Under the pieces are notes generated by a model. It made no database searches. It saw only the letters and a list, made by a program, of their open reading frames with translations, and was not told the DNA's origin. Made by a program: the position numbers and the translations under genes. Positions 2,714 to 46,339 of a DNA stretch of 64,000 nt are shown here, one piece after another. Source of the stretch: Lishizhenia sp. (lineage in GTDB: Bacteria > Bacteroidota > Bacteroidia > Flavobacteriales_D > Crocinitomicaceae); contig CBFHKX010000003.1 in the NCBI GenBank assembly GCA_965656535.1, positions 101,595-165,594 on the forward strand, given 5' to 3'. Every line of letters begins with the position of its first letter. Position 1 is the first letter of the stretch.

Positions 2714-2736
2714 AAAGGGAGCGTAAAGCTCCCTTT
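2714..2736 (-). terminator. Intrinsic terminator after hup
   Basis: aaagggagc-gtaaa-gctcccttt hairpin with an A-run on its left (U-tract on the minus strand). Confidence 0.8.
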
Positions 2737-2753
2737 CTTCTAAATAAACATAA

Positions 2754-7424: not shown

Positions 7425-7427
7425 GGT

Positions 7428-9311: not shown

Positions 9312-10130
9312 ATGCATCTAGGCGGAAATCTCAAATTGTTAAGAAAGTTAAAGAAAAAATCTCAAGAAGATATTTCTAAAGAATTAGGTTTAACACGCTC
9401 TACTTACAGCGGGTATGAAAATGGTGTAGCTGAGCCAGGAATAGAAACCTTGGTTGGTATTTCAAACTATTATTCACTTCCTTTAGATGATTTGATTAAA
9501 AAGGATTTTTCTAAGCTAAAAGAAAAAGATTGGGAGTCTATAGACAAAGGTGTATATGCAGATATTAAAGGACAACAACTTCGTATTTTAACAACAACCG
9601 TAAACGCTGAAAATGAAGAGATAATAGAAATGATATCTCAAAAAGCATCTGCAGGATACACTTCTGGATATGCTGATCCAGATTATATTAAAGTATTACC
9701 AACATTTAGCTTACCTTTTTTATCTAAAAATAGAAAGTACAGGTCTTTCCCTATTCAGGGAGACAGCATGCCTCCGGTTGGTCCAGGGTCTCACGTGGTA
9801 GGAGAGTTCGTTCAAAATTGGGCAACTATTAAATCGGGAACTCCTTGTGTAATTGTTACCAAAGAAGATGGGATTGTATTTAAAATGGTCAACAACAAAT
9901 TGGAAAGTACACAGTCTTTTCAATTGTGTTCTACTAATCCGTTATATACACCTTACATGGTGCACGTGAATGAAATCATAGAGATTTGGAAGTTTGTTAA
10001 CTACATTTCGCCAGACTTACCCGATGTTAAAATAGATGAAGGAGAAATGATACAAACAATGAAGCAGCTGCAAGCTGAAGTCCACGAATTAAAGAACTCG
10101 TTTATACCAAAAAATAAAGCGTTGAATTAA
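9312..10130 (+). CDS. XRE-HTH + S24 peptidase-like transcriptional repressor (LexA/CI-like)
   Basis: N-terminal HTH (SQEDISKELGLTRSTYSGYENG), Ala-Gly site (KASAGY), Ser motif QGDSM and Lys motif GIVFK. Confidence 0.88.
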   Translation: MHLGGNLKLLRKLKKKSQEDISKELGLTRSTYSGYENGVAEPGIETLVGISNYYSLPLDDLIKKDFSKLKEKDWESIDKGVYADIKGQQLRILTTTVNAENEEIIEMISQKASAGYTSGYADPDYIKVLPTFSLPFLSKNRKYRSFPIQGDSMPPVGPGSHVVGEFVQNWATIKSGTPCVIVTKEDGIVFKMVNNKLESTQSFQLCSTNPLYTPYMVHVNEIIEIWKFVNYISPDLPDVKIDEGEMIQTMKQLQAEVHELKNSFIPKNKALN

Positions 10131-15043: not shown

Positions 15044-16432
15044 CTAGAATATTTTTCCAGGATTTAAAATCCCGTTCGGATCGAACACTTTTTTTATTTC
15101 TCGCATTAAATTCAACTGAACTTCAGAAAAAGCAATTGGCATATATCTTTTTTGAACTAAACCAATACCGTGTTCGCCAGATATTGTACCTCCTAAACGA
15201 ACCACTAATTCAAATATTTCAGTTATTGCTTTTGGTAGTTCATCGTTCCATTGCACATCGGTTAATTCACCCTTAATTATATTAACATGCAGGTTTCCGT
15301 CTCCAGCATGACCATAACAAACGGATTTAAAACCATATCTGCATCCAATTTCCTTAACACCTGCTAATAGTTTAGGCAACTCATACCTCGGTACAACGGT
15401 ATCTTCTTCTTTATAAACAGAATGCGCCTTTACAGCTTCACCTACCTTACGTCTTAACTTCCAAAGTGTATCTTTTTGTGCTTCGCTTTCAGCAAATAGA
15501 ATTTCGTCTGTTTTAAAATCTTCCAACAAGACCATTATTTTTTCACAGTCTTTAAATAACAAGTCGGGATTAAAACCATCTACCTCAATTAAAAGATGTG
15601 CAGCATGATTTTCTTTTACTTCAACAGAAATGTCATCGTTGTATTGGATTGTCCATAAAAGCGCATCACGCTCCATAAATTCTAAACCGCTTGGCGTTAT
15701 GCCGGCTTTAAATATTTCTGCAACAGCTCTGCATGCTTCTTCGGCAGCATAAAATGGCACTAGCATTAATAAAGTATGCGTCGGATGCGGAATTAGTTTT
15801 AAAACAATTTTAGTAATTATACCTAAAGTTCCTTCACTTCCTACAACAAGTTGAGTTAAATTATAACCCGTAGCATTTTTCAATACATTCGCACCTGTCC
15901 AAATAATTTCACCAGTCGGCAAAACAACTTCTAAGTTTAAAACATACTCGTTTGTAACGCCGTACTTTACGGCTTTCGGACCACCACTATTTTCTGAAAC
16001 ATTACCACCAATAAAACAGCTTCCTTTGCTCGCAGGATCTGGAGGATAAAAAAGTCCTTTTTCTTTTACAGTATTTTGTAGAACCTCTGTAATTACACCC
16101 GGCTCGGTTGTAACTTGATGGTTGTTGGTGTCAATTTCAATAATTTTGTTAAAACGTTCCATACTCAAGGCAATCCCATTTTTGTTTGGAATTGCTCCTC
16201 CGCTTAAACCTGTTCTAGCTCCTTGCGGTGTAACTGTGATATTATTGGCATTACAATAAGCCAATATCGCAGCAATTTCTTTTGTGTTTTCTGGTACCAA
16301 AACCATGGCAGGCAAAACAGATAAATCTTCGGTTTCGTCTTTACTATGTTTATATAAACTGTCAGAGTCAACCTTACATCGGTCTCCAAGTAGAGTGGAA
16401 AAGTAAGTTATATGGGTTTTAATTGTGTTCAT
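15044..16432 (-). CDS. FAD-binding oxidoreductase, GlcD/D-lactate dehydrogenase family
   Basis: PQGARTGLSGGA, YPPDPASKGSCFIGGNV, YGHAGDGNLHVN, GTISGEHGIG and FDPNGILNPGKIF. Confidence 0.92.
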   Translation of the reverse strand: MNTIKTHITYFSTLLGDRCKVDSDSLYKHSKDETEDLSVLPAMVLVPENTKEIAAILAYCNANNITVTPQGARTGLSGGAIPNKNGIALSMERFNKIIEIDTNNHQVTTEPGVITEVLQNTVKEKGLFYPPDPASKGSCFIGGNVSENSGGPKAVKYGVTNEYVLNLEVVLPTGEIIWTGANVLKNATGYNLTQLVVGSEGTLGIITKIVLKLIPHPTHTLLMLVPFYAAEEACRAVAEIFKAGITPSGLEFMERDALLWTIQYNDDISVEVKENHAAHLLIEVDGFNPDLLFKDCEKIMVLLEDFKTDEILFAESEAQKDTLWKLRRKVGEAVKAHSVYKEEDTVVPRYELPKLLAGVKEIGCRYGFKSVCYGHAGDGNLHVNIIKGELTDVQWNDELPKAITEIFELVVRLGGTISGEHGIGLVQKRYMPIAFSEVQLNLMREIKKVFDPNGILNPGKIF

Positions 16433-16998
16433 TATAAGTTTCGCTCTACAAAGTCAATTAAACTATGAATTACCTTGATGTGTATTTCTTGAGCTCTATC
16501 TGCATATTTAGACTTTGGTGCTCTTATTTCTACATCGCATATTGATGCCATTTTACCACCGTCTTTTCCTGTTAAACCAATAACTTTCATTCCTTTAGCT
16601 TTTGCAGCGTTTATAGCTTTAATAATGTTTTTAGAGTTTCCACTGGTTGAGATTGCTAAAAGAACATCTCCAGTTCTTCCAACTCCCTCTATGTATCTAG
16701 AAAATACATCTTCGTATCCGTAATCATTACTAACGCACGACATGTGTGATACATCAGATATTGAAATAGCGCCAATTGCCGGACGATTATCTCTATATCT
16801 ACCTGTTAATTCTTCAGCAAAATGCATGGCATCACACATAGAGCCTCCATTTCCACAAGAAATAACTTTACCTTCTTTTCTAAAGCTTGTAACCAAGAGG
16901 TTTCCTGCTCGTTCTATAGCTTTGAAGTTTTCATCATTACTGTTAAATAAGTGTAAAATTTCGGCTGCCTCCAAAAAATGGTCTGCAATTTGTTTCAT
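16432..16998 (-). CDS. gmhA: D-sedoheptulose-7-phosphate isomerase (SIS domain); start at 16998 or 17022
   Basis: [26 protein letters not shown] and [14 protein letters not shown]. Confidence 0.9.
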
Positions 16999-17122
16999 GC
17001 TGTTTGAAATTGATTTCTTCAAAAATAAATAAAAATGGAAGTTAGCAATCTGTAATTTTAAACAAGTTTGCTATATTTGACAACCGTGATACTGTTAAGG
17101 TACACAAAAACAACGAAATATT

Positions 17123-17548
17123 ATGAAAAAAACGTTACTTGCACTGTTTGCATTTTTCTTAACTACGGCAGTTTTTGCCCAAGAACCTACGTGTTTTGAA
17201 AGATTAGAAAAAGCTTTTGAGAAAAGAGGTTCATATACAGTAGCAGATGATATGCACCGAAATGTTATTATTAGTTTTTTCGAAGACGGTGATTCTTTTT
17301 GTGTAAAAGGAAAAGCAAGAGTAGAAAATGGAGTAGTGGTTGCTATTTTTGTTTTTTATGAAGATGCGACTTCAGAGTTATTCGACAAGAAGTTTTATAA
17401 TAAAACAAAGAAAGAGCCGGTAATCACCAATGGAATATCTGAAATGATATATACAGCAGACGGTGAACAGCTTAGAATTGTATTTATTGATAAGTTAAAA
17501 CCAAAATCTAAAAGATATCAGGCAGTAGAGTTGCCTTCTGATCTATAA
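17123..17548 (+). CDS. Hypothetical secreted protein
   Basis: Sec signal peptide (..TAVFA/QE), own -7 element tatatttg at 17072-17079 and its own terminator. Confidence 0.75.
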   Translation: MKKTLLALFAFFLTTAVFAQEPTCFERLEKAFEKRGSYTVADDMHRNVIISFFEDGDSFCVKGKARVENGVVVAIFVFYEDATSELFDKKFYNKTKKEPVITNGISEMIYTADGEQLRIVFIDKLKPKSKRYQAVELPSDL

Positions 17549-35143: not shown

Positions 35144-35812
35144 GTGGAAATAACCGAAGAAAAAAATAAAAAAAAAGCATGGCCAACAAAAGATGTTATG
35201 CAGCAGATATATGCTTTAAATTTTTGGGGAGAAAATAATACACCATTTTATTCTGGCGAAGGTTCGCATGCAGAACAGATTGTAGCGCCTTACATAAAAG
35301 TAGTACAGTCTTTTTTAAATGAGTTTAAAGGTCAGTTATCTATTTGTGATTTGGGATGTGGAGATTTTAATATTGGTCAACAATTACTTCCGTTTACCAA
35401 GCAATATACAGCCGTAGATATAGTTCCGGAGTTAATAACCTACAATAAAAAGAAGTTTAAGTATTCTAATTTAACTTTCTCACTATTAGATATTTCTAAT
35501 GATTTATTACCCGTTGCAGATTGTGCTATTATTAGGCAAGTTTTACAACATCTATCAAATTCAGAAGTTAAGCGTATTGTTAAGAAATTAAATCAATACA
35601 AGTATATTATCTTAACTGAGCATATATCAAACGGTGATTTTGTTCCCAATATTGATATTATTTCAGGAAGAGGAATTCGCTTAAAGAAGAATAGCGGAAT
35701 TAATCTATTTGAACCGCCATTTAATTTTAAGGCAAAACATCTTAAAAAAATAGTAACTGTAAACCTAAATGGCAAGAAAGGAAGGATAGTAACATGGCTA
35801 ATTACGCTTTAA
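35144..35812 (+). CDS. Class I SAM-dependent methyltransferase
   Basis: YSGEGSH, CDLGCGDF, VDIV and RQVLQHL motifs. Confidence 0.82.
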   Translation: MEITEEKNKKKAWPTKDVMQQIYALNFWGENNTPFYSGEGSHAEQIVAPYIKVVQSFLNEFKGQLSICDLGCGDFNIGQQLLPFTKQYTAVDIVPELITYNKKKFKYSNLTFSLLDISNDLLPVADCAIIRQVLQHLSNSEVKRIVKKLNQYKYIILTEHISNGDFVPNIDIISGRGIRLKKNSGINLFEPPFNFKAKHLKKIVTVNLNGKKGRIVTWLITL

Positions 35813-37109
35813 GATACTGTCTTAAATAACTTTTTGTAAATAATTTAAAACCTGTTTTTTTTGCGTAAAATAAATAATCATTTTCAATCTTAAGTAATTG
35901 TTCAGGTTCTCTTTGAAGTAAACTAAAGATTTGATATTCAATTAGTTTATAAAAAATAAAGGTGTAGTCTTTATATGAGTCATTAAATTTAAAAGTATTG
36001 ATTAATTCAAATGATTTTTTCGCTTCTAGGAGTCGATCTTCACATAAATTCTGAAGAGAATAACCCAATAATACAATAGCGTGTGTGTTATGTCCACTCC
36101 AGTTTGTAGGTTTTAATAGCTCTTCGTAATATTCTTTAATTAATATGGCGATTTTCTTTATATCCTTTACAATTAGTAGAGCAGGAAAAATTTCAATACT
36201 AAATAAGAAAATATCGGTTTCTTTCTTGCGCAAGTACACCATTTGACTATTCCAAATTTCTTCATATTTATCAGTGTTATTCTGCTCTTTATAAAACATT
36301 AAATTATAAGCAAAGCATCTTCCTTTAAGTACAGGGTGAAAATTATTTTTAATTCTATCGATGGAAATTTCTGCTAAATTCTTATCAGCTGATAAATAAG
36401 TGTTAAATCCTAATAGTAATTCATAGAATAGTTTTTCGTGACTCTCATTTTCAGCATACTGCAATGATGATTTGATAAATTTACCATAATACCCATTCAA
36501 ATAAGAATAGTCTATAAACCAATGTAAAACATTTTCTCTGAAGCTGATTATCGGAGTTAAAACAGTAATGATTTCGTTTATAGTTGTAGAATTAAGACTA
36601 CGAAACAAAAGACAAATTTGCGCAGCAAACTTTAGTCGATTTGATTCATCAAATTGCAGTAATTTAGGATCAAAAAGTATTGGGAGCGTTTCAATTTCGT
36701 TTCTGTAGACTTTAGATTTAATGATGTTAGACAATTTCATATGAAATTGAAAGGTGTGTATTTGTGTGTGTAGCCAGTCTAAATCTTCTTGAGTTATTTT
36801 AGTGTTAAGTTCAATATTCAGTACTTTTTTCCACGCATACCATTCGAGGTCACTTGCATAGGTTTTTAAATAGGCTCCGTAATTTTTATAACCTAAATAT
36901 TGACAAAGGCTATTAATTGTTTTTCTTGAGGGGTTGGTTTGAGGCAAAAAACCAAAAAATCTTCGTAATGTATTATAGCTTATTTTTTCATTAATAGCAT
37001 ATTCAACGGCATCTTGAAATAGCTTTAAGTCTGCAACGGATGATACTGGCGCACCAAATTGCCTGTATAAATCAAGTTTTAATTGCTGAAAGTTTTCTTT
37101 GTTATACAT
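35802..37109 (-). CDS. Hypothetical protein with an N-terminal HTH-like segment and a helical C-terminal domain
   Basis: N-terminal ISYNTLRRFFGFL..PSRKTINSLCQYLGY resembles Bacteroidota XRE-like regulators. The rest is helical with no recognisable motif. Confidence 0.6.
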   Translation of the reverse strand: MYNKENFQQLKLDLYRQFGAPVSSVADLKLFQDAVEYAINEKISYNTLRRFFGFLPQTNPSRKTINSLCQYLGYKNYGAYLKTYASDLEWYAWKKVLNIELNTKITQEDLDWLHTQIHTFQFHMKLSNIIKSKVYRNEIETLPILFDPKLLQFDESNRLKFAAQICLLFRSLNSTTINEIITVLTPIISFRENVLHWFIDYSYLNGYYGKFIKSSLQYAENESHEKLFYELLLGFNTYLSADKNLAEISIDRIKNNFHPVLKGRCFAYNLMFYKEQNNTDKYEEIWNSQMVYLRKKETDIFLFSIEIFPALLIVKDIKKIAILIKEYYEELLKPTNWSGHNTHAIVLLGYSLQNLCEDRLLEAKKSFELINTFKFNDSYKDYTFIFYKLIEYQIFSLLQREPEQLLKIENDYLFYAKKTGFKLFTKSYLRQYLKA

Positions 37110-37343: not shown

Positions 37344-37643
37344 CTATCTGCACTTGTTTAGTGCTTGCATTAAGGCTTCAGTAAATTGTTTTTGACCTTC
37401 TATGTTGCTATATCTTTGTTGTATCGCATCTTCTTCGTTTTGAGCTCTTTTTAAAAGTTGAATGCTTTTGGGTAGGGCAGTAGTGTCCCCATCAATGGTC
37501 TTTTGAATTAAATGTTGAGCTTTACATTTAAGGGTTGCAATTTTCTCGGCATCTTTCTCTAAAGAGCTAGAACAAGAGGTTGAAAATATTAGAAGCAAAT
37601 ATAAAAAAGGCGCTAGATTTTTTAACTGTCTCATTATTCTCAA
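37344..37643 (-). CDS. Small hypothetical lipoprotein
   Basis: Lipobox FSTSC; helical body with two further Cys. Confidence 0.7.
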   Translation of the reverse strand: MRIMRQLKNLAPFLYLLLIFSTSCSSSLEKDAEKIATLKCKAQHLIQKTIDGDTTALPKSIQLLKRAQNEEDAIQQRYSNIEGQKQFTEALMQALNKCR

Positions 37644-37681
37644 TTTGTGAACAAAGAACGGAATTATTTAATGCCCCACGA

Positions 37682-37753
37682 GCCCATTTTTAGCCCATAA
37701 AAAAAGAAACAACATTTAATGCTGTTTCTTTTTAATGGTGTTTCGTGTAAAAA
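37682..37753 (-). repeat. Copy A of a ~72-bp intergenic cassette (terminator plus ATGGGCT-N4-ATGGGC motif)
   Basis: About 90% identical to 38547-38619 by manual alignment. Confidence 0.85.
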
Positions 37754-37758
37754 TTAGG

Positions 37759-38490
37759 TTAGAATTTGTACATGTCTTTAGCTTGTTCCATAGCTTCTTT
37801 TTGCATTTCTTTAGCTTGTTTCATAGCTTCCTCTTGCATTTCTTTAGCCGTTTCCATGGCTTGGTCAGTAAAATCTTTCGCATTATCCATAATGTCGCTC
37901 ACATCATCAAAACTTCCGCTATTTAATTCAGTATCTTCATCTAATTCACCATCCCATTTTGACGTTGTATTACCATTTGGATGAGTTCCAGAAATATCTG
38001 TCATGTATAATTCAAAATTAACAGTCTTATCCATAATCTTACTTGCATCACCCTCTACCATACCAAACATTGAGTTTGTTACTGTAAAATTTAATGTTAC
38101 TTCTGTTCCTGCTTCACTACCTAAGAAAGTGCTAACTTTTTCAGAATCTGTTGAAAGTTCTGGTGATCCGAAAGTCACACCGGCTGCGTCAAGTAATTTG
38201 AGACTTAGGTATCCCATACCCGGATCTTTTAAACCAATTTCTTCCTTTAATTTAAATGTAACAGGCAGAAGTATTCTTTCTGTTTCTCCGTCTTTAGAGT
38301 ATTGTAATTCATAACTGCCATCAGTTACCTCAATATAGTTAGACGCGATTCCTGGAACGAAAACGTCTTTCACTTCTAAAGTTTTTGCATTAGGTATACT
38401 ACTGCCACAACTTGTAACGCTAGAAAGCACAATAGAAGACAGCAAAACTGTTCCAGCTAAACTCCAAATTTTTTCTTTAAATTTTTTCAT
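37759..38490 (-). CDS. Hypothetical lipoprotein with C-terminal 11-residue amphipathic repeats
   Basis: Start MKKFKEK (38490), lipobox SVTSC, tail QAMETAKEMQE/EAMKQAKEMQK/EAMEQAKDMYK. Confidence 0.75.
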   Translation of the reverse strand: MKKFKEKIWSLAGTVLLSSIVLSSVTSCGSSIPNAKTLEVKDVFVPGIASNYIEVTDGSYELQYSKDGETERILLPVTFKLKEEIGLKDPGMGYLSLKLLDAAGVTFGSPELSTDSEKVSTFLGSEAGTEVTLNFTVTNSMFGMVEGDASKIMDKTVNFELYMTDISGTHPNGNTTSKWDGELDEDTELNSGSFDDVSDIMDNAKDFTDQAMETAKEMQEEAMKQAKEMQKEAMEQAKDMYKF

Positions 38491-38546
38491 AATGTATATT
38501 TTGATTTTGGTTGACACAAATAAACTGCGAAAAAATATATATCGCT

Positions 38547-38619
38547 GCCCATTTTTAGCCCATCACAAAAAGAAACAACATGTAATGTTCTTTCTTTTTA
38601 ATGGTGTTTGGTGTAAAAA
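38547..38619 (-). repeat. Copy B of the ~72-bp intergenic cassette
   Basis: gcccatttttagcccat..aaaaagaaacaacat..tttctttttaatggtgttt.gtgtaaaaa, 865 bp from copy A. Confidence 0.85.
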
Positions 38620-38622
38620 AAA

Positions 38623-38751
38623 TTAATATCCGCCTAATCCTTTCATCATTTCTTCTGTCTGCTTTTGCATATCTTCTGACATTTTTTTGGATTGTTCTTG
38701 GATATCTTTTACCATTTCTTGAGCCTCAATGGCATATTCATTTCCATAGTT
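38623..38751 (-). pseudogene. 3' remnant of a paralogue of the 37759-38490 lipoprotein
   Basis: Manual translation gives NYGNEYAIEAQEMVKDIQEQSKKMSEDMQKQTEEMMKGLGGY*, with the same Met/Gln/Lys/Glu heptad-like tail. It is followed by the same terminator cassette and has no 5' part. Confidence 0.65.
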
Positions 38752-38934
38752 TTATAAGGCTTTTTAGAAAGTTCTCTTTTTTAATTGGCACTATAGCTTA
38801 GTTAAAATTTCCACAAGATTGAAAAAAGTGTAGATATTGATTTTGACTTTTTTAAAATTTAGAAGACTTGAAAGTGGATACTTTAAATCCTTGACATTTT
38901 GTTATATTATCATATTTTTTTTAGTACGACTAGG

Positions 38935-40893
38935 TTAATTTATTACGTATTTTAAATGCTCATAAATCATAACCATTGCAAGTGTATCTAGTTCGCAATA
39001 CTTGAGTAAAGCATTTGAAATTTCTTCTCTTTCATTCTCTTCCATATCATTAAATTGCAACTTTCCATAGGCCGTAAGAGCTACTCCACCATCAGATATG
39101 TTCTCGAGTCCTGAAATTATATTATCTTTTTGCTTTTCTGTCCAATTTGAAAATAGACTTGGAAGCTGTTTATAGGGATCTATAAAACCATCCTTTTCTT
39201 TTCTTAACCATATATGTGAATCATTGTAGTTCAAGCTAGAAAGATTTATCGAAATAATAGGCTGTGTATATTTTTCTTGTAAAAACGAACATGTGCTTAA
39301 TATTGCAGGTAATATTGCTTTAATTGAGTTAGATCCTTTTGTTAGTGGATGGTAGTAATACCGTAACATGATTTGTCTAAGATCAACGAAATTTCTTTTC
39401 GGATTCCATTTTTGAACTACATTTCCGGTTGGAGTCGCGATGTTCCTAATAAATTGAATGAGTTTATGTCTGTCTTTATAATCACTTTGTTCTAATTGTT
39501 CTTTAATTGTATTCAAAATACTGTTTTCATGAGAAGCAAATCTGAAAATTGTACCATTGTCATGATCTATTGCATCTTTTAGAGATTCGATAAATTTAAA
39601 ATTTGGGAAGTCTCCTGTTTTGTTATTTAGATACTGTGATTTGTGTGTAATTTTGCCGTTCTCGTCTATCTGGTGATGTGAAAATTGAAAAGCAACTTGT
39701 TCATAGGGTTTCATGTTTTTTGTAAATGGAATTGCCACAGCACTGGTTTCAAAATCAATAAAATGAAGTGGAAACTTCCATTTTTTCATCTCTTTACTTA
39801 ATTCTTTACAATTAATAAATGGTTGCTTATCTTCAGATACCGCTTTTTTTATTTGAATCCATCTTCTATCGATGGCAGTCAGTTGTTTGGAGGTATTTGT
39901 TGTATTGAAGTCAGCTTTATTTACAGTTTTAAGTAAGATTTTGCCTTTGTTTAAAAATTTTTGACCTCTGAAATTCCATATTTCAAAAATATTGGGTAAT
40001 TCAAATTCTTTTTCTGATATGTTATGCATTGTTTTGAAACAATTTTTAAAGCCTGAGAGCTTGCCTAATTTTTCTTCTTCTGGGTTTGTTTTAAATTCAC
40101 AGTTCTTACATGAGCTGTAGTTAGTTGTCCAATTTGGAAAAGTATTGTTTTTTATTGTTTTTTCGAATTGATTTAGTGCTTTAGAAAATGTTAGCGATCC
40201 TTTATAGGATTGTTCGTTTAATAAAATTTCTTTGATCAAATTAGAAATGTTCACTTTTGTCAGTACAGATGTTTTTATTGCAGTTTCTGGCGAAATCAGA
40301 GTTTTTATATTTTTCCTTTCTTTTCCCTTTTTAGGTAGTCTAATAAGTTGATTCAGTCCGTTAATTGTTGATTTCTTTGATTTATCAGCTAGAATAAAAT
40401 ATGACTCAATTTTTAAATGAGGCATGCAGCGTTGAATTACGTGTTTTTGAAAAGCAACATCGAAAAAATATGGCTTCCAATTACTGTAAATCTTTCCGTT
40501 CTTGCCAATAAAAGAATTTGAATTAGTTGAGTCAAATGATTTAGCTTTAACTTCTATTAGCTTTAAGGTATTGCCTTTTTTAACAATTATGTCGCTCATG
40601 ACGAACAAATTATTCATTAAGAAAGATGCTTCATATATGACTACTTCATCTTGTTTCAATAGAGTTTTGGTTTCTTCCCAAGCAGATTGGTAATCACCTC
40701 GTTGGGCTTCTAAAAAAAAACCATTAGGGTAGTGCATTCTGGCTAAGGCTTCGACTTGAAATCCACCCTCTGCCAAAGAAGCTAAGAATGAATCTTCGGA
40801 AGATCTATTAGCGTAGCGGTCATCAAAAGTATACACGATTTTATTAGGACAACTTAGACCTATTTTAAATTTGGATTTTGTAAGTACCTTCAT
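38935..40893 (-). CDS. DUF2779-domain protein: PD-(D/E)xK (Cas4/RecB-like) nuclease fused to an RNase H-like domain
   Basis: LTKSKFKIGLSCP N-terminus, SDIIVK..LIEVK, CKNCEF..C, FIDFET..PYEQVAFQFSHH, GSNSIKAILPA and LLKYCELDTLAMV. Confidence 0.82.
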   Translation of the reverse strand: MKVLTKSKFKIGLSCPNKIVYTFDDRYANRSSEDSFLASLAEGGFQVEALARMHYPNGFFLEAQRGDYQSAWEETKTLLKQDEVVIYEASFLMNNLFVMSDIIVKKGNTLKLIEVKAKSFDSTNSNSFIGKNGKIYSNWKPYFFDVAFQKHVIQRCMPHLKIESYFILADKSKKSTINGLNQLIRLPKKGKERKNIKTLISPETAIKTSVLTKVNISNLIKEILLNEQSYKGSLTFSKALNQFEKTIKNNTFPNWTTNYSSCKNCEFKTNPEEEKLGKLSGFKNCFKTMHNISEKEFELPNIFEIWNFRGQKFLNKGKILLKTVNKADFNTTNTSKQLTAIDRRWIQIKKAVSEDKQPFINCKELSKEMKKWKFPLHFIDFETSAVAIPFTKNMKPYEQVAFQFSHHQIDENGKITHKSQYLNNKTGDFPNFKFIESLKDAIDHDNGTIFRFASHENSILNTIKEQLEQSDYKDRHKLIQFIRNIATPTGNVVQKWNPKRNFVDLRQIMLRYYYHPLTKGSNSIKAILPAILSTCSFLQEKYTQPIISINLSSLNYNDSHIWLRKEKDGFIDPYKQLPSLFSNWTEKQKDNIISGLENISDGGVALTAYGKLQFNDMEENEREEISNALLKYCELDTLAMVMIYEHLKYVIN

Positions 40894-41660
40894 TGTAGTT
40901 TGTATTCGAATCCAATCAATAAATCAGAATCATAATTTTGAATATCAATATAAGGTGTGTTGTGATAACGATACAATCCTTTTAAATAGAATGAAACTTT
41001 TTCTAAATCATAGTAAAATCTAGGTTCAATAAATATTCTAAAATCATTCTTTTGTGCAGCGTTTAATTGAAAGTAAGTAACCATTAGAAATCTACATTTT
41101 TTCTTAAGGTGAAATTGAGAATAAGAGGATAGATTGAGTCTTATATTTTCAATAGTTAGTAATGAATTGTTTTTTTTTTGGTAAACCTCGTTTTCGTAGA
41201 ACACACCATAACCAATGTCAAAATAATTGTTCGATGATTTTTTTTTAAGCAGAGCTTGTCTAAAGCCAGCACCTGAAACGAGTCTTTTGTTGAGTTGAAG
41301 AGATAAGGCGTTTTGTAATTGAAAAAAAGTGTAAAAAGAATTTTTTCGAACAAATAGATTGTATCTAAGTTGTCCGCTTATATCAGAGGATATTTTATTC
41401 TTCTTTTCAGATAAAAAATCATAATTTACAAAAGCTCTTACAAGGTGATTATTTTTTTTAAAACCACTCAAAACAGTGCTATTGAATTGAAATAGATTAA
41501 TATTACCTGATTTAAAATCGCCTTCTGCATTGAGGCTAAGGAAAATACTACTGTCAATTTCCTTCATTAGAGTTTCTGTATTTATTATTGCCTGGCTAAG
41601 GGAATATTTTATAAAAAAGAAGTTGCCTAAAATAGATAGAATAAGAATGGAAACTCTCAT
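40890..41660 (-). CDS. DUF481-like outer-membrane beta-barrel protein
   Basis: Signal peptide (..YSLS/QAIINTE), alternating beta strands, terminal LIGFEYKL. ATGA and TAATG overlaps with both neighbours. Confidence 0.7.
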   Translation of the reverse strand: MRVSILILSILGNFFFIKYSLSQAIINTETLMKEIDSSIFLSLNAEGDFKSGNINLFQFNSTVLSGFKKNNHLVRAFVNYDFLSEKKNKISSDISGQLRYNLFVRKNSFYTFFQLQNALSLQLNKRLVSGAGFRQALLKKKSSNNYFDIGYGVFYENEVYQKKNNSLLTIENIRLNLSSYSQFHLKKKCRFLMVTYFQLNAAQKNDFRIFIEPRFYYDLEKVSFYLKGLYRYHNTPYIDIQNYDSDLLIGFEYKLQ

Positions 41661-41986
41661 TATCTTACTCTTTTCATTCGTTCTCTCGCTCTTTTGATAT
41701 CTTCTCGAAAACCTTTAATTTTATCACGATACGATACTATTTGGTCTTTCTCTCTTTTTATCTGTCTAGCATACGAATCCCAATCTCTCTTTTTTTGAGC
41801 CCTAATTGAATGTCTAGCTGCAGTAGAAGAAGCATTTTTAAGCTTTCTCGCGAAACGATCTGTATCTCGACTTTTTCTAATTTTAATTTTTGCAATATCT
41901 TCTTTGCAAGATGCAATTTTGGATTTTATTCTGTCAATATCTCTTTTATAGCCTTCTATTTGTCGCTTGATATATTCTTTGCTCAT
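41660..41986 (-). CDS. Small highly basic coiled-coil protein (108 aa)
   Basis: Heptad pattern (IEGYKRDIDRIKSKIASCKEDI..IKREKDQIVSYRDKIKGFREDIKR), Lys/Arg-rich. Confidence 0.7.
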   Translation of the reverse strand: MSKEYIKRQIEGYKRDIDRIKSKIASCKEDIAKIKIRKSRDTDRFARKLKNASSTAARHSIRAQKKRDWDSYARQIKREKDQIVSYRDKIKGFREDIKRARERMKRVR

Positions 41987-41997
41987 ATTTTATGTTT

Positions 41998-42750
41998 TCA
42001 TAAATTGTAAGTAATGGGGTTAGAAGCACCCCTTTTTTTCTTATGTGCAATAGATTTGTTGATATACATTGATCGAACATTTTCAGGTGCAATTTTTCCA
42101 TTAAAACCATACCCCATATAAATCTTCCCTTTTTTTCTTCCTGATTTATAAGGTCGTTCTGTTTGATACCAATGATCAACTTCAAAAACCTCTACAATTA
42201 GCCCTTTGTATTCACTTAAAACATATTTTAACTTCCCATCCCGTGGGTCAGACATTCGCCAAGTCTCTTTGGTCGCGTTGTATATTTTTTCTTCACCTGA
42301 TGCATGTTTATAACTTCCATTTATATTAATGATTACAAAATCACTAGGAATGCGGTTTAATGGAGTTGCATTATATTTTCTTATAATTTCAGAAGCACTC
42401 ATTAACCCGTTTTCAATAGAATTTATTCCACCTTGTAAATTCCCTCTTCTAAATGAACTAAAACTAGGTATGAATTTAAAGGTGTCAAGAAGTGAAGCCT
42501 CGATATTAAATGCAGTTTTTTCATTTAGTCCATGTCTAACTATAACATGTTTTATTTCTTTTCCCTTTTTGAGAAATTCTTGGATGGTATCAAGTTTTTC
42601 AGTGCCAGAATTTCCATTTTTTGCATTTTCTAAATGGTTAAAAACTCTATTTCCTTTTCCTTTTCCAACATAAAAAGGAAGATCCGTTTCAGGGTCTAGA
42701 AGCAAATACACGTAATACTGAAGTTCTTCAATAGTTTTAGGGTCAAACAT
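41998..42750 (-). CDS. LEM-3-like GIY-YIG nuclease domain protein
   Basis: YYVYLLLDPETDLPFYVGKGKGNRVFNH, IVRHGL..AFNIEASL. Confidence 0.85.
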   Translation of the reverse strand: MFDPKTIEELQYYVYLLLDPETDLPFYVGKGKGNRVFNHLENAKNGNSGTEKLDTIQEFLKKGKEIKHVIVRHGLNEKTAFNIEASLLDTFKFIPSFSSFRRGNLQGGINSIENGLMSASEIIRKYNATPLNRIPSDFVIININGSYKHASGEEKIYNATKETWRMSDPRDGKLKYVLSEYKGLIVEVFEVDHWYQTERPYKSGRKKGKIYMGYGFNGKIAPENVRSMYINKSIAHKKKRGASNPITYNL

Positions 42751-42755
42751 ATTTC

Positions 42756-43151
42756 TTATATAATGTTATCTTGAATGATTTTTTTTATCTTTTTTGCATC
42801 TCGAATAAAAAAATGCTTAGCTCTTATGCTCTCGTTTCCTTCGCTTGAGATAATTATAGCAGAACGTATAACTCCACGATCAATTTTTACATAAGAAATA
42901 CTAGAAAAGGAGAGAAGTGATCTATCTATTCCAATAAGGTATTTATTTCTTTTTTCGTAAGTTACTCCTATCTGATCTAGTATTATTTTATCTGGCGTAA
43001 GCAGATGGCCTCCTACAAAAATACTAGACGAAAACACATACCTAAAATTGCTCGCGTTACTTTGTTCTTTGGGTATTTTAACTTTATTACCGCACTTTGA
43101 ACAAAAATTGCCATCGGATATATTTAGAAATCCACAATTACTACAATACAT
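42756..43151 (-). CDS. Zinc-ribbon plus PH-like domain protein
   Basis: MYCSNCG..NFCSKCG, then a beta-rich domain (TPDKIILDQIGVTYEKR..ISYVKIDRGV..IIISS) ending in a helix. Confidence 0.7.
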   Translation of the reverse strand: MYCSNCGFLNISDGNFCSKCGNKVKIPKEQSNASNFRYVFSSSIFVGGHLLTPDKIILDQIGVTYEKRNKYLIGIDRSLLSFSSISYVKIDRGVIRSAIIISSEGNESIRAKHFFIRDAKKIKKIIQDNII

Positions 43152-43152
43152 T

Positions 43153-43512
43153 CTAATCTCTTGCAGCGTTTCCTAGCGTAAGATCGTTGTCAATTAAATG
43201 CTTCGCTGATTTATCTTTAATTTGAACTTTGACTCCAAATGTATTTTCAAATAAATCTTCCACTTCTCCAACTTTCATACTAGCTTTAATTTTTAAATCT
43301 GCTTTACTCGATGTATTCACAGATTTTGTTGTTTTTTTGTTTAGGGCAGCCAATGTTAAATCACCTTCTGCAATTCTATTTCCTTTGTAAAAAACTAATG
43401 CTAAATTAAAACTTGATTTAAAATCCTTTGATATCGTTTTTAGTTTTTTATTCGGAGCAACAGAAAACTCCGCTTTATTAAATCTGTCTTTGATGTTGTT
43501 CAGTAATCCCAT
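43153..43512 (-). CDS. Small protein with two ubiquitin-like (beta-grasp-like) repeats, paralogue 2
   Basis: Two internal repeats; aligns end to end with 43567-43872. The fold call is by eye. Confidence 0.65.
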   Translation of the reverse strand: MGLLNNIKDRFNKAEFSVAPNKKLKTISKDFKSSFNLALVFYKGNRIAEGDLTLAALNKKTTKSVNTSSKADLKIKASMKVGEVEDLFENTFGVKVQIKDKSAKHLIDNDLTLGNAARD

Positions 43513-43526
43513 TGTTTTATTTTAAT

Positions 43527-43559
43527 TTATTGAGCCCAGTTGAAATTTGGGCTCAATAA
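43527..43559. other. Perfect 12-bp inverted repeat between the two paralogues
   Basis: ttattgagccca-N9-tgggctcaataa. Confidence 0.8.
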
Positions 43560-43566
43560 TATATGT

Positions 43567-43872
43567 TTATAATTTTCCTGCTTGAGTCAATGTCATTGAG
43601 TTATCAGCCAATTTACTATCATCGGCGTTAGAGATTTGAACTTTTATACCAAAAGTTTCTTTAAAATAACGTTCAACATTTTCTACTCTACTTCTTGCTC
43701 CTAATTCAAGAGATCCACCTGGGTCGTTTGTTTTAGATAAGTCAGTAATTTTCATTTTGTCATCAGCAAATTTTGCTCCTTTGTACATTCTGATGTTACA
43801 GTTAAACTCTTTTTCAAACTGTTTTTTGATACTGTTTACTGTACTTGCTTTGGTTACTTTAATAGTCGCCAT
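43567..43872 (-). CDS. Small protein with two ubiquitin-like (beta-grasp-like) repeats, paralogue 1
   Basis: IKVTKASTVNSIKKQFEKEFN..YKG..ADDKMKI / LELGARSRVENVERYFKETFGIKVQI..ADNSMTL. Confidence 0.65.
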   Translation of the reverse strand: MATIKVTKASTVNSIKKQFEKEFNCNIRMYKGAKFADDKMKITDLSKTNDPGGSLELGARSRVENVERYFKETFGIKVQISNADDSKLADNSMTLTQAGKL

Positions 43873-43938
43873 GTATTTTGTTTTAAATTTTGTCTACTTC
43901 TTTTTAGGGTAGTGTTTCGACTTATTTCTACCGATTTG

Positions 43939-45747
43939 TTAATTTGTTATTCCTGATGTAATATCGTCTAACATAGATTTATACCTTTCGCCTAATTCAC
44001 TATATATATTATAGTCTATTACAAGGTCTTTTTGGTCTGATATAAAAAGATTCTCACTTTCTTCAAGTCCATATTTAGATAAAATAAGTTGATATATTTC
44101 GTTCACTTTACCAGTATTGCTTTTTACCCAAATTTTCATTCCCATTGCTTTTTTAGATGGGTTAGAACAATAAATAAGTTGTTGATTTCCTCGCCCTATT
44201 CGAGTTTCATCATTGAATGAAGTACCGGTTTTGGCAAATGAAATTCTATATTTATTTGGTTGTTCTGTTTGCTTGTTACTCAAAGGGTTCCATAGATTTC
44301 CATAATTAATAACAGCTTGATCTGGATAGCCAGCTTCGGATAATTGAAGCAGTTTTGTTTCTACTCCATCAAAAATTGTTTTGTTGCCAACTTTTTGAAC
44401 TGCTTGCTTGGTTTCCACATCATCTTCTACACTTGTAATAGATGCAAAAGCCATCGCGTTTTCGAGTTCTTCCTCCAATGAGTCTTTATATTTATCTCTT
44501 AATAGGTTCAATAGTTCTAAGATCGCGAATGCCCTTGATTTTAGGTATGAATCGGTTTGGCAAGCTCCCCATGTAACTTGTTCCCACTCTTCATCAATTA
44601 GTTCGGATTCACCAAACTTTTTAATTTTTTCTTGAATTTCATCCCACTCGACTCCAAATTTGTTCCCGAAGCCTTTTGTCCATTGAGTAAAATTTGGACT
44701 TTGGGTTAGTAACCTGAAAATTTTCGGATAAGAAATTTGAATTCCTAATACTGCAAATAGCATGAAATCTTCTCCCTTAGGTTGTTCTTCATCAACCTCT
44801 ATTTCTCTTAAGTGATTAATTAGACTAAAAGAGTTTAGGTATCTTTTAAGACTTCGCGGGTTGTAACCAATACTAAAACGAACCGCTTTCGCGTATAGAT
44901 CTTTTTCATCTTCATTTATTTTAATTCCTAGTTCATGTAATTTTTCTACTAAGAAATTTTCGATGTCATAAGTTCCTATTGGCATAGAAAAAGGAACCTG
45001 TATAATTTTGTCAAAGAAGGATCTAAACTCCCTTTCATTTTCTTCTGTTTTAGGTCCAAACTTACTTTCTAATCCCTTTACAACTACGTCATAGTCGATG
45101 GCAAGTATAAAAACACAATTTGGAATATCAAATATATTTTTTAGTGCTTCTAACACCTCTACAGCGTCTCCTGGTGGTATACGATCTAAGTCATCAACAA
45201 AAAATACTACTTTTTTTACTGGGTTTTTTTCATCATTAATCAAATCTTTTATAAGGTCGCTGATAAGTGCTTTAATTTCAGCAATTTCTGCCGTATTTTT
45301 TTGTTTAACTTCTCCTTGTGCTGCATTCTGAACATCTACACCTGTCTGCTTGGCTACAACTTGGTTCGCTAAACCTCCTAGAAATTTTGCTGCAGATTTA
45401 AATTTTGCTTTACTTTCATCTTTTAAAGTCCAAATACCTCTTTCTTCGCAGGAAATTTTTAATTTTTCCAACATTCCTCTTAGTACACCTGGCGTTGTTT
45501 CATTTGCACCACGAAACATACTGTATTCCCAAGTGTTCACCCACGAACATGCAATATTATTTTTATTGAAATCTTCTAAAAGAAGAGACATCAGTGAGGT
45601 TTTTCCTGTACCCCATTCACCTTGTAAACCCACAGTTATAGGTGTATCACTAGATATAATAAAATTAGAGAGTGCTGCGCTATACTTCTCTACCTTTAAT
45701 AGATCTTGAGATTTTGTTGATATTGGCTTATCTGTAATTGACCCCAT
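43939..45747 (-). CDS. KAP family P-loop NTPase with an uncharacterised C-terminal domain
   Basis: VGLQGEWGTGKTSLM (Walker A), VNTWEY, VFFVDDLDR (Walker B), FFDKIIQVPFSMP and NPRSLKRYLN. Confidence 0.9.
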   Translation of the reverse strand: MGSITDKPISTKSQDLLKVEKYSAALSNFIISSDTPITVGLQGEWGTGKTSLMSLLLEDFNKNNIACSWVNTWEYSMFRGANETTPGVLRGMLEKLKISCEERGIWTLKDESKAKFKSAAKFLGGLANQVVAKQTGVDVQNAAQGEVKQKNTAEIAEIKALISDLIKDLINDEKNPVKKVVFFVDDLDRIPPGDAVEVLEALKNIFDIPNCVFILAIDYDVVVKGLESKFGPKTEENEREFRSFFDKIIQVPFSMPIGTYDIENFLVEKLHELGIKINEDEKDLYAKAVRFSIGYNPRSLKRYLNSFSLINHLREIEVDEEQPKGEDFMLFAVLGIQISYPKIFRLLTQSPNFTQWTKGFGNKFGVEWDEIQEKIKKFGESELIDEEWEQVTWGACQTDSYLKSRAFAILELLNLLRDKYKDSLEEELENAMAFASITSVEDDVETKQAVQKVGNKTIFDGVETKLLQLSEAGYPDQAVINYGNLWNPLSNKQTEQPNKYRISFAKTGTSFNDETRIGRGNQQLIYCSNPSKKAMGMKIWVKSNTGKVNEIYQLILSKYGLEESENLFISDQKDLVIDYNIYSELGERYKSMLDDITSGITN

Positions 45748-45830
45748 ATTCTTTTACTAATTTTAAAATGATATTATATAATCCTACATGAAAACATATG
45801 TAAAGTTGAAAGATTTTAAAAAGACTTGAG

Positions 45831-45847
45831 GCTCATTTACAGCCCAT
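45831..45847 (-). promoter_or_regulatory. Third copy of the direct-repeat motif (ATGGGCTGTAAATGAGC) upstream of the KAP gene
   Basis: gctcatttacagcccat versus gcccatttttagcccat at 37682 and 38547; same 22-nt spacing to a -7-like element. Confidence 0.6.
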
Positions 45848-46013: not shown

Positions 46014-46112
46014 GTTTTAAAAGCAAAAGCCCCAAGACATTGATACATCTTGAGGATTTCTGTTTCCTACGGCCATATAGGAATTATCTTTTTGGCGGTC
46101 TGGACAGGACTC
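46014..46112 (-). repeat. att-like duplicate of the tRNA-Asp 3' end plus downstream terminator
   Basis: 99 bp matching 46183-46281 with 5 mismatches; includes the last 20 nt of the tRNA (tggcggtctggac.ggactc). Confidence 0.9.
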
Positions 46113-46194
46113 TCTGTCTGCCGACTGGCAGGGAGCCAAGCTTCTTCTTAGAAGATTTGGTGATTATTATGAAAATAGAAGTGTTTTAAAAGCA

Positions 46195-46229
46195 AAATCC
46201 TCAAGACATTGATACATCTTGAGGATTTC
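46195..46229 (-). terminator. Terminator of the tRNA-Asp pair
   Basis: aaatcctcaaga-N10-tcttgaggattt hairpin. Confidence 0.75.
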
Positions 46230-46261
46230 TGTTTCCTACAGCCATATAGGACTTATCTTTT

Positions 46262-46339
46262 TGGCGGTCTGGACGGGACTCGAACCCGCGACCCCATGCG
46301 TGACAGGCATGTATTCTAACCAAGCTGAACTACCAGACC
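46262..46339 (-). tRNA. tRNA-Asp(GTC), copy 2
   Basis: GGTCTGG/CCAGACC acceptor stem, CATGC-CTGTCAC-GCATG anticodon arm, TTCGAGT T-loop, encoded CCA. Confidence 0.97.

What the first reader, a model, noticed from the sequence alone, without database searches (positions are those of the whole stretch)
37652..45847. Three island promoters share a direct-repeat motif exactly 22 nt from a degenerate -7 box
Seen: on the minus strand ATGGGCTAAAAATGGGC occurs at 37682-37698 and 38547-38563, and ATGGGCTGTAAATGAGC at 45831-45847. The two hexamers are 11 bp apart, one helical turn. Each copy lies exactly 22 nt upstream of an imperfect TAnnTTTG element: GTtcTTTG 37652-59, TTtaTTTG 38517-24 and CAacTTTA 45801-08. 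These precede the two lipoprotein genes and the KAP gene. The first two copies share ancestry by duplication, but the third has unrelated flanks. Inference: an activator site, or an alternative-sigma element, at the -33 position that switches on the KAP run and the lipoproteins together.
Basis: partly seen in the sequence, partly recalled or inferred. Interest (0 to 1): 0.72.

Follow-up and report, generated by a model that had tools for sequence, protein, structure and literature searches.

The report
Direct-repeat operator for orphan regulator family
Three promoters in a Flavobacteriaceae genomic island share a 7-4-7 direct repeat at a fixed distance from the promoter's -7 box; about 40 other loci show the same layout next to genes of an unannotated ~430-residue protein family, the likely regulator, which here would control two small lipoproteins and a KAP-type phage-defence operon.

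Summary
ATGGGCT-N4-ATGRGC occurs at exactly the three stated places and nowhere else in the 3.02 Mb genome.

It is not a local oddity. The same architecture (7-mer, 4 nt, 7-mer, 21 nt, TAnnTTTG) recurs at 43 promoters in unrelated Flavobacteriaceae loci. It lies directly upstream of the KAP gene in 12 of 14 homologous KAP loci. It also lies next to nearly every homologue of the island's 435-aa orphan protein (window 35802-37109), usually on the opposite strand about 8 nt from that gene's ATG.

The half-site differs between clades of that protein (ATGGGCT, ATGTATC, ATGTACC, ATGTACT), while the geometry stays the same.

One prediction was tested. Scanning the window's own genome for the ATGTATC class found one perfect site, and an undetected 423-aa family member starts 7 nt from it.

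Best reading: these repeats are the operator of a new regulator family with a small all-helical N-terminal domain and a TPR-like body. The operator sits at about -51 to -34, a class-II activator position, on sigma-A promoters that lack a -33 element.

Three things are not shown: transcription start sites, DNA binding, and the sign of regulation. The "HTH" label found no support in fold or profile searches.

The parts
45831..45847 (-). Direct repeat copy 3 (ATGGGCT gtaa ATGAGC[C]), operator of the KAP operon promoter. It is the most degenerate second half-site of all those seen.
   Evidence: Equivalent repeats lie upstream of KAP in L013, L015, L016, L017, L022, L023, L073, L074 and L075.
45801..45808 (-). 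-7-like box CAACTTTA (4/6 of TAnnTTTG), 22 nt after the hexamer. The predicted start site is near 45796, giving a leader of about 49 nt.
   Evidence: Box position -12..-5 is taken from PMC9723704. The start site is inferred, not mapped.
38935..45747 (-). Eight-gene KAP operon: KAP NTPase, two ~100-aa paralogues, Zn-ribbon protein, GIY-YIG (PD-T4-3-like), coiled-coil protein, DUF481, DUF2779.
   Evidence: The gene order is conserved in L015, L016, L017 and L019.
38766..45830 (-). Segment present here but absent from the related strain L025. It is bounded by motif copies 3 and 1.
   Evidence: blastn of the window against L025.
38623..38751 (-). Headless gene fragment, equal to the 3' end of L025's 134-aa gene.
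   Evidence: L025 894-1111 aligns to window 38765-38547 at 91%.
38566..38600 (-). Intrinsic-terminator hairpin immediately upstream of copy 1.
   Evidence: dG -12.1 kcal/mol, z -3.7.
38547..38563 (-). Direct repeat copy 1 (ATGGGCT aaaa ATGGGC[A]).
38517..38524 (-). -7 box TTTATTTG (5/6). The orthologous box in L025 is a perfect TATATTTG.
37759..38490 (-). Lipoprotein A (243 aa, lipobox SVTSC). This slot is variable: L025 has 110-aa and 134-aa genes here.
37701..37733 (-). Intrinsic-terminator hairpin immediately upstream of copy 2.
   Evidence: dG -14.6 kcal/mol, z -6.0.
37682..37698 (-). Direct repeat copy 2 (ATGGGCT aaaa ATGGGC[T]).
37652..37659 (-). -7-like box GTTCTTTG (4/6).
37344..37634 (-). 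Lipoprotein B (96 aa, lipobox STSC). Its family is a repeat-controlled target in both the GGGCT and the TATC regulator clades.
35802..37109 (-). 435-aa orphan protein, the candidate cognate regulator. It has a small all-helical N-terminal domain with invariant N-T-L-R-R and a TPR-like superhelix.
   Evidence: No Pfam, NCBIfam, PADLOC or PDB sequence hit.

Best explanation
The three repeats are operators for the island's own 435-aa protein. That protein belongs to a previously unannotated family of Flavobacteriaceae regulators with a small helical N-terminal domain and a TPR-like body.

Two copies of the protein, or two DNA-reading units, would bind head-to-tail to two 7-bp half-sites spaced one helical turn apart (ATGGGCT-N4-ATGGGCT). 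The second half-site ends 21 nt before the sigma-A -7 box. The operator therefore covers about -51 to -34, centred near -42, and takes the place of the missing -33 element. From that class-II position the protein most likely recruits or stabilises RNA polymerase. This would switch on the two small lipoprotein genes and the eight-gene KAP/PD-T4-3-like defence operon together, in response to whatever the TPR-like domain senses.

Shown by comparison: the conserved geometry, and the linkage of the repeat to this gene family. Inferred: DNA binding by this protein, activation rather than repression, and the start sites.
For: 1. Uniqueness. These are the only 3 sites in the genome, all within 8.2 kb of the regulator gene.

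2. Conservation against an unalignable background. blastn homology to other KAP loci stops at the coding block. Yet 10 of 14 KAP loci carry a GGGCT/GAGCT-type repeat upstream of KAP, and 2 more carry a TGTACT-type repeat with the same geometry.

3. Fixed spacing. Across 43 promoters the gap from the 7-mer end to the TA of the box is 21 nt in 36, 22 nt in 5 and 20 nt in 2. The box is perfect in 16 and 5/6 in 17.

4. Linkage. Loci fetched only by homology to the 435-aa protein carry such a repeat. It usually lies on the opposite strand 2-17 nt from the gene's ATG.

5. Negative controls. The 4 strict-motif hits in 40 relatives that lack the protein have no -7 box (8 hits for the control pattern). 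Motif plus 22 nt plus a perfect box gave 0 hits in 301 genomes. In G168, G092 and G264, only the sites next to the homologue have a box.

6. Covariation. The GGGCT class maps to one clade (support 99/96) and the TGTAYY classes to the other. The tree needs 10 label changes against a shuffled mean of 20.2 (0 of 200 shuffles as low). Paralogues with different classes coexist in one genome.

7. Prediction. An ATGTATC-class scan of the own genome found a perfect site at C5:71648-71665. A previously undetected 423-aa family member starts 7 nt away (family profile E 1e-64).

8. N-terminal residues. N-T-L-R-R is invariant, as is ATG in every half-site class. Residues about 21-27 differ by class (RGDCE against D-L/V-K).

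9. Terminators directly upstream of copies 1 and 2 show that these are separate promoters.
Against: The F. psychrophilum start-site tables hold no such repeat.

The N-terminal domain could not be shown to be a DNA-binding fold. Foldseek's best E-value was 1.8, with TP901-1 CI and EspR only at TM about 0.4. hhalign against HTH_3 gave probability 0.8%. No Pfam family matched.

Several KAP loci with the repeat show no regulator gene within the fetched DNA (L015, L017, L022). Regulation in trans has to be assumed there, or the regulator gene lies beyond the contig.

The clades are kin, so covariation on a tree overstates independence. A site at -51..-34 could equally serve a repressor. In the divergent arrangement the site overlaps the regulator's own upstream region, which suggests at least negative autoregulation.
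Confidence: 0.6

Rival explanations
1. Same protein and same site, but the protein is a repressor or a dual regulator. Bound repeats would occlude polymerase at -51..-34 and keep the defence operon and lipoproteins silent until a signal releases the protein.
For: 16 of 43 promoters have a perfect -7 box and should not need help. In divergent pairs the repeat sits 2-17 nt from the regulator's ATG, so it overlaps that gene's own promoter or leader. Costly defence operons are often kept repressed (general knowledge).
Against: No promoter shows a -33 TTG at the usual distance; the repeat replaces it. Several targets, including all three here, have weak boxes (4-5/6), which fits dependence on an activator. 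Repressor sites more often overlap the -7 box or the start site.
Confidence: 0.22
2. The repeat is bound by another, unlinked host factor, for example an OmpR/PhoB-type response regulator. The 435-aa protein is only a conserved neighbour, such as a sensor or co-factor.
For: 7-4-7 direct repeats replacing the -35 are the classic PhoB/SARP geometry (general knowledge). The 435-aa protein has no recognisable DNA-binding domain.
Against: Half-site class tracks the clade of the adjacent protein and differs between paralogues in one genome. Each genome has only 1-3 sites, all next to a family member. The only gene constant across loci is the 435-aa family gene; the targets vary.
Confidence: 0.1
3. 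The repeat is mainly a recombination site or cassette boundary. Gene cassettes are exchanged at it, and its promoter context is secondary.
For: The structural differences between the window and strain L025 break exactly at the motifs. The 7.1-kb KAP block is bounded by copies 3 and 1, and the 73-bp duplication ends at the motif. The genes between motifs differ between strains.
Against: No recombinase gene was found in the island. Most repeats elsewhere are single and sit in stable divergent gene pairs. A recombination role does not explain a constant 21-nt distance to a -7 box or the orientation toward genes. Short shared promoter motifs can act as passive crossover points.
Confidence: 0.05
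4. The repeat is the -35-type element of an alternative sigma factor promoter.
For: It lies where a -35/-33 element would lie.
Against: The downstream element is the sigma-A TAnnTTTG box, perfect in 16 of 43 cases. A tandem repeat is not a sigma -35 feature. Site classes differ within one genome and track a non-sigma protein. No sigma domains were found in the linked protein.
Confidence: 0.02
5. Chance plus duplication: copies 1 and 2 are one duplicated cassette and copy 3 is a coincidence.
For: Copies 1 and 2 are clearly duplicated. The three -7-like boxes are weak, and a 4/6 match at a given position has roughly 7% chance (my estimate).
Against: Expected 0.02 matches per window against 3 seen. 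There are no other sites in 3 Mb. The motif and spacing recur in dozens of unrelated loci.
Confidence: 0.01

Closest known systems
Pho box / PhoB (OmpR-family response regulators), class-II activation
   Same: Two 7-bp direct repeats separated by an A/T-rich 4-bp spacer (11-bp period). They abut the core promoter and replace the -35/-33 element. Binding would be head-to-tail and the site is centred near -42. (General knowledge, compared.)
   Different: The linked protein has no receiver domain and no winged helix. Its model is entirely helical and it has no Trans_reg_C or Response_reg hit. The regulon is 1-3 local promoters, not a global stimulon.
SARP regulators of Streptomyces (e.g. AfsR-type large SARPs with TPR)
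   Same: Heptameric direct repeats with 11-bp periodicity just upstream of the promoter's downstream element. Some members carry TPR-like sensor regions. They are pathway-local activators. (General knowledge.)
   Different: SARPs use an OmpR-type winged-helix domain plus a BTAD domain. None is detected here. The phylum and the promoter type also differ.
RRNPP receptors (PlcR, Rgg, NprR, PrgX, AimR)
   Same: Architecture: a small N-terminal helical domain plus a TPR-like superhelix of about 300-350 residues. Regulons are small and local, and include an adjacent small exported-protein gene. Weak Foldseek hits to AimR, RapF and Rgg2 (E 0.07-0.18).
   Different: The Foldseek matches are no better than those to generic TPR proteins. 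The XRE-type HTH is not confirmed. RRNPP boxes are palindromes, whereas these are direct repeats. The neighbours here are 96-157-aa lipoproteins, not ~40-aa propeptides. RRNPP systems are described in Firmicutes and their phages (PMC10075063, abstract only).
Bacteroidota sigma-A promoter (-33 TTTG / -7 TAnnTTTG)
   Same: The downstream element is the standard -7 box. In F. psychrophilum it lies at -12..-5 (PMC9723704).
   Different: The -33 element is absent and its place is taken by the second half-site.

Membership tests
OmpR/PhoB-type response regulator operator system | Direct repeats with about 11-bp period overlapping the -35 region | tested here: met
   7-4-7 repeats ending 21 nt before the -7 box in 36 of 43 promoters.
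OmpR/PhoB-type response regulator operator system | Cognate protein has a receiver domain and a winged-helix Trans_reg_C domain | tested here: not met
   The linked 435-aa protein has no Pfam hit. Its AlphaFold model is all-helical with no beta-strands.
SARP | OmpR-type DNA-binding domain followed by a BTAD domain | tested here: not met
   No Pfam hit. No such fold among the Foldseek matches.
RRNPP | C-terminal TPR-type peptide-binding superhelix | tested here: inconclusive
   High-confidence helical-repeat model (pLDDT 92.4). Foldseek E >= 0.03 to TPR proteins including AimR, RapF and Rgg2, but equally to TOM70, APC/C and OGT.
RRNPP | N-terminal XRE-type HTH | tested here: not met
   hhalign against an HTH_3 alignment gave probability 0.8%. 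Foldseek's best E was 1.8. Only 1 of 42 members touches HTH_26, at E 0.12.
RRNPP | Adjacent short secreted propeptide gene and peptide re-import | not testable with these tools
   The neighbours are 96-157-aa lipoproteins or secreted proteins. Processing and import cannot be assessed from sequence.
Alternative (ECF) sigma promoter | Distinct -35/-10 pair recognised by a sigma with regions 2 and 4 | tested here: not met
   The downstream element is the sigma-A TAnnTTTG box. There are no sigma domains in the linked protein.
Bacteroidota sigma-A promoter | TAnnTTTG at -12..-5 | tested here: met
   33 of 43 boxes score 5/6 or 6/6. The position relative to the start site is assumed from PMC9723704 and was not mapped here.
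Bacteroidota sigma-A promoter | -33 TTTG/TTG about 19 nt upstream of the box | tested here: not met
   The spacers listed carry no TTG at that place. The second half-site occupies it.
Site-specific recombination site (att / cassette boundary) | Associated recombinase, with identical core repeats flanking the mobile segment | tested here: not met
   No integrase or transposase domain among the island ORFs. The flanking copies differ at 3 of 17 positions.

The most novel reading that the evidence does not exclude
The 435-aa family is a Bacteroidota counterpart of RRNPP-type receptor-signal pairs. Each regulator would be wired through its private 7-4-7 operator to an adjacent small lipoprotein or secreted-protein gene, whose product or a fragment of it is the signal sensed by the TPR-like domain. 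In islands like this one, that circuit would gate a KAP/PD-T4-3-type anti-phage operon. Defence would then be switched on by a population-level or envelope-derived cue.
Probability: 0.1. Interest if true: 0.85.

Novelty: new variant of a known kind. Interest (0 to 1): 0.66.

Why it matters
Very few transcription factors and operators are defined in Flavobacteriaceae, a group with unusual promoters and few genetic tools. This analysis provides a testable regulator-operator pair with a clear geometry. It also provides a set of natural specificity variants (ATGGGCT, ATGTATC, ATGTACC, ATGTACT) that coexist in single genomes and so may be orthogonal. The family is sizeable and has no annotation: 989 clusters at 50% identity with E <= 1e-10. 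It also shows that a widespread KAP/GIY-YIG/DUF2779 defence-like operon of marine flavobacteria usually travels with a dedicated promoter switch. That makes the question of when this defence is turned on experimentally approachable.

Tried and rejected
- The fetch from genomes regions and the genome search closed later. The second family member on contig C5 could therefore not be made a locus. The phylum-wide distribution could not be sampled either.
- The strict motif in 40 relatives sits at chance level: 4 hits against 8 control hits, none with a -7 box. The motif is therefore not a genus-wide regulon signal.
- Motif plus N22 plus a perfect box gave 0 of 301 genomes. It is useful as a specificity control, but too strict to find real sites whose spacing or box departs from it.
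- The only lipoprotein A homologue, in G083 (33% identity), has no repeat upstream.
- The search for related loci with KAP returned only 3 genome loci and 6 metagenome loci. More loci came from the look-up of encoding contigs.
- Domain identity of the regulator: Pfam, NCBIfam, PADLOC, PDB sequence search, Foldseek on the full model and on the N-terminal model, and hhalign against HTH_3 were all negative or non-significant.
- The mini-hairpin before copy 3 is not significant (z 0.01).
- The sigma-70 consensus scan is uninformative for this phylum.
- Literature searches for the motifs, for KAP in flavobacteria and for RRNPP in Bacteroidetes found nothing relevant. The F. psychrophilum start-site supplement holds no such repeat.

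Full report
**1. The observation**

On the minus strand, ATGGGCTAAAAATGGGC lies at 38563-38547 and 37698-37682, and ATGGGCTGTAAATGAGC at 45847-45831. Each is followed by exactly 22 nt and then TTTATTTG, GTTCTTTG or CAACTTTA. The pattern has 3 matches in the window against 0.02 expected.

In the whole 3.02 Mb assembly (12 contigs, about 34% G+C) these are the only three matches, even to ATG[AG]GC-N5-ATG[AG]GC. A relaxed pattern adds one hit against two control hits.

Read as 7-mers, the element is ATGGGCT-N4-ATGGGCT: a direct repeat with an 11-bp period.

**2. Local anatomy**

Copies 1 and 2 are the last 17 nt of a 73-bp duplicated cassette (92% identical) that stops exactly at the motif's 3' end. 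The rest of the cassette is a strong hairpin followed by a U-run (dG -12.1 and -14.6 kcal/mol, z -3.7 and -6.0). So each motif starts a new transcription unit directly after a terminator.

The downstream genes are:
- a 243-aa lipoprotein;
- a 96-aa lipoprotein;
- for copy 3, an eight-gene run on the same strand: KAP NTPase (PifA/QatA/PDC-S20-like), two ~100-aa paralogues, a Zn-ribbon protein, a GIY-YIG protein matching PD-T4-3 at 1e-51, a coiled-coil protein, DUF481 and DUF2779.

The last gene of the run encodes a 435-aa protein with no Pfam, NCBIfam or PADLOC hit. The island lies beside two tRNA-Asp genes.

**3. Is it conserved elsewhere? KAP loci**

The KAP protein has hundreds of 72-91% identical relatives in marine Flavobacteriaceae. 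I fetched 14 distinct KAP loci. Nucleotide homology to the window stops at the coding block (45782-38948), and the upstream DNA is not alignable.

Even so, 10 of the 14 carry a GGGCT/GAGCT-type repeat 62-133 nt before the KAP ATG, for example:
- ATGGGCGtgttATGGGCT
- TTGGGCGcattATGGGCT
- ATGGACTagttGTGGGCT
- ATGGGCTaataATGGGCT
- ATGGGCAgattATGGGCT
- ATGAGCTaaatATGAGCT

In nearly all of them the -7 box follows at the same distance. The box is perfect in L022, L023, L073 and L075.

Two further loci (L019, L020) have ATGTACT-N4-GTGTACT or GTGTACT-N4-GTGTATC in the same place and geometry. One locus (L014) has the repeat in front of an intervening gene. One (L012, identical upstream to L021) has none.

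**4. Link to the 435-aa protein**

Homologues of the 435-aa protein lie beside KAP in 8 of the 14 loci, often divergently.

Loci fetched only through that protein's closer homologues (44-97% identical) all contain the GGGCT repeat, with a perfect TAnnTTTG 22 nt after the hexamer. In L027-L030 the repeat lies in the divergent intergenic region, with only 7-15 nt between it and the gene's ATG.

A blind sample of 301 family genomes gave 25 loci in 21 genomes. A generic scan for any 7-mer repeated at an 11-bp offset and followed by a -7 box found, in nearly all of them, a repeat on the opposite strand 2-17 nt (typically 8) from the homologue's ATG. In these distant homologues (21-28% identical) the half-site is ATGTATC, ATGTACC or ATGTACT.

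The generic scanner's background is about 53 hits per Mb-strand in the own genome. That gives about 0.003 expected hits per 60-nt window.

Tabulating 43 promoters:

| Measure | Value | Promoters |
|---|---|---|
| Gap, 7-mer end to TA | 21 nt | 36 |
| Gap, 7-mer end to TA | 22 nt | 5 |
| Gap, 7-mer end to TA | 20 nt | 2 |
| -7 box match | 6/6 | 16 |
| -7 box match | 5/6 | 17 |
| -7 box match | 4/6 | 10 |

It is therefore a constant of the whole family.

**5. Controls**

- Among 40 relatives, the strict motif occurs 4 times against 8 hits for the reversed control pattern. Those four genomes lack the protein, and none of the four sites has a -7 box.
- Motif plus 22 nt plus a perfect box gives 0 hits in 301 genomes.
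- In G168, G092 and G264, which carry GGGCT-clade homologues, only the genome-wide relaxed hits next to the homologue have a box.
- In G195, G231, G264 and G109, the clean TGTAYY repeats are those beside family genes. G109 has five half-sites in tandem.

**6. Covariation and a prediction**

In a maximum-likelihood tree of 37 family proteins, the GGGCT class occupies one clade (support 99/96). The TGTAYY classes occupy the other. The labels need 10 changes against a shuffled mean of 20.2, and 0 of 200 shuffles were as low. Relatives share labels, so this shows consistency rather than proof.

More telling, paralogues with different operator classes coexist in single genomes (G264, G195, G231).

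As a direct test, I scanned the window's own genome for the ATGTAYY class. The one perfect site, ATGTATCAATAATGTATC at C5:71648-71665, is followed after 21 nt by TAAATTTG. An ORF starts 7 nt from its other end and encodes a 423-aa protein that earlier protein searches had missed. It matches the family profile at E 1e-64 and is 22% identical to the island protein. The motif thus predicted the gene. The genome has exactly two family members, each with its own operator class.

**7. Targets**

Genes behind the repeats are mostly small lipoproteins (96-157 aa, with a lipobox) or signal-peptide proteins. The lipoprotein B family is a target in both the GGGCT and the TATC clades. The ancestral unit therefore looks like regulator + operator + small exported protein, with the KAP operon recruited to it in some lineages.

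**8. The protein**

AlphaFold with 42 homologues gives a confident all-helical model (pLDDT 92.4). It has four short helices at residues 8-71 and then a helical-repeat superhelix.

Foldseek finds only weak TPR-type matches (E >= 0.03). They include AimR, RapF, Rgg2 and MalT domain III, but equally TOM70, APC/C and OGT.

The N-terminal domain modelled alone (pLDDT 86.5) has no significant structural match. The best E is 1.8, and TP901-1 CI and EspR reach TM about 0.4. hhalign against the genome's own HTH_3 domains gives probability 0.8%. The "HTH" label is therefore unconfirmed.

What the sequence does show:
- an invariant N-T-L-R-R segment in all classes, paralleling the invariant ATG of all half-sites;
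- class-specific residues around positions 21-27 (RGDCE in the TGTAYY classes, D-L/V-K in the GGGCT class).

That these residues read the DNA is my inference.

The family is sizeable and has no annotation: 174 clusters at 50% identity with E <= 1e-30, 989 at <= 1e-10 and 3040 at <= 1e-3, almost all 405-445 aa.

**9. Mechanism**

In F. psychrophilum the sigma-A box TAnnTTTG lies at -12..-5 (PMC9723704). If that holds here, the repeat spans about -51 to -34 and is centred near -42. No -33 TTG is present at the usual distance.

This is the geometry of class-II activation by tandemly bound proteins, as in PhoB pho boxes and SARP heptamers (general knowledge). I therefore favour activation. My estimates:
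- that the repeat is a functional promoter-linked cis-element: about 0.9;
- that the 435-aa family protein binds it: about 0.7-0.75;
- that it activates, given that it binds: about 0.6.

Repression or dual control remains a serious rival. Many boxes are perfect. In divergent pairs the site also overlaps the regulator's own upstream region, which suggests negative autoregulation.

**10. Structural polymorphism**

A contig from a strain whose 435-aa protein is 97% identical (L025) shows the following order: the tRNA-Asp flank, one motif, the promoter that follows copy 1 here, a 110-aa and a 134-aa gene, the terminator plus motif, lipoprotein B, and the regulator gene.

blastn places the homologous segments as follows:

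| L025 segment | Window segment |
|---|---|
| 1-230 | 46059-45831 |
| 215-303 | 38562-38476 |
| 894-1111 | 38765-38547 |
| 1040-3093 | 37753-35700 (97.6%) |

So the 7.1-kb KAP block (45830-38766) is an insertion/deletion polymorphism bounded by motif copies 3 and 1. The "headless" fragment 38623-38751 is the tail of L025's 134-aa gene.

The motifs mark the breakpoints, but no recombinase is present. I read this as crossover at short shared promoter sequences, not as the element's primary function.

**11. Limits**

No paper on the motif or the family was found in the searchable library.

**12. Verdict**

- The regulatory reading is well supported by comparison.
- The binder is inferred from strong genomic linkage.
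- The sign of regulation is open.
- The mechanism belongs to a known kind, a promoter-proximal direct-repeat operator, and is carried out by an apparently undescribed protein family.

Noticed in passing
outside the window: G000 contig C5:71648-72942 (and 69368-71456): There is a second member of the regulator family (423 aa, not found by the earlier protein searches). A perfect ATGTATCAATAATGTATC lies 7 nt from its ATG on the opposite strand, then 21 nt, then TAAATTTG, driving a divergent 696-aa secreted protein.
   Followed up: yes
window 38766-45830 versus L025 1-303: The whole KAP block is absent from a strain whose regulator is 97% identical. The two flanks meet at a single motif there. 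The slot held by lipoprotein A here holds a 110-aa and a 134-aa gene in that strain.
   Followed up: yes
L042 (G109:C6:147119-147169) and L051: Five ATGTATC half-sites sit in perfect 11-bp tandem in front of a 142-145-aa acidic lipoprotein. This is an expanded operator.
   Followed up: no
L073 (Bizionia sediminis GCA_042684585.1) 5248-8001: The KAP operon has a perfect repeat and box. The 2.7 kb upstream has no called gene and no family ORF of 100 aa or more, although its DNA resembles the 5' end of the regulator gene in L075. The regulator may have decayed.
   Followed up: partly
L014 about 9770-9810: GGAAGTCCGTA is repeated with a 22-bp period about 230 nt upstream of that locus's KAP gene. 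It is unrelated to the 7-4-7 element.
   Followed up: no
window 46014-46112 and 46183-46281: An 85-99-bp direct duplication (95% identical) includes the 3' end of tRNA-Asp, next to the island. It appeared as a secondary blastn hit.
   Followed up: no
window 41998-42750: The GIY-YIG protein of the KAP run matches the single-gene defence system PD-T4-3 over its full length (1e-51). The KAP protein matches the PifA, QatA and PDC-S20 models.
   Followed up: partly
L074 (Flavobacterium GCA_039539185.1) 2195-4117 and 16183-17301: The same locus holds a second, different KAP NTPase gene and a weak second family-like ORF (E 1.5e-10).
   Followed up: no
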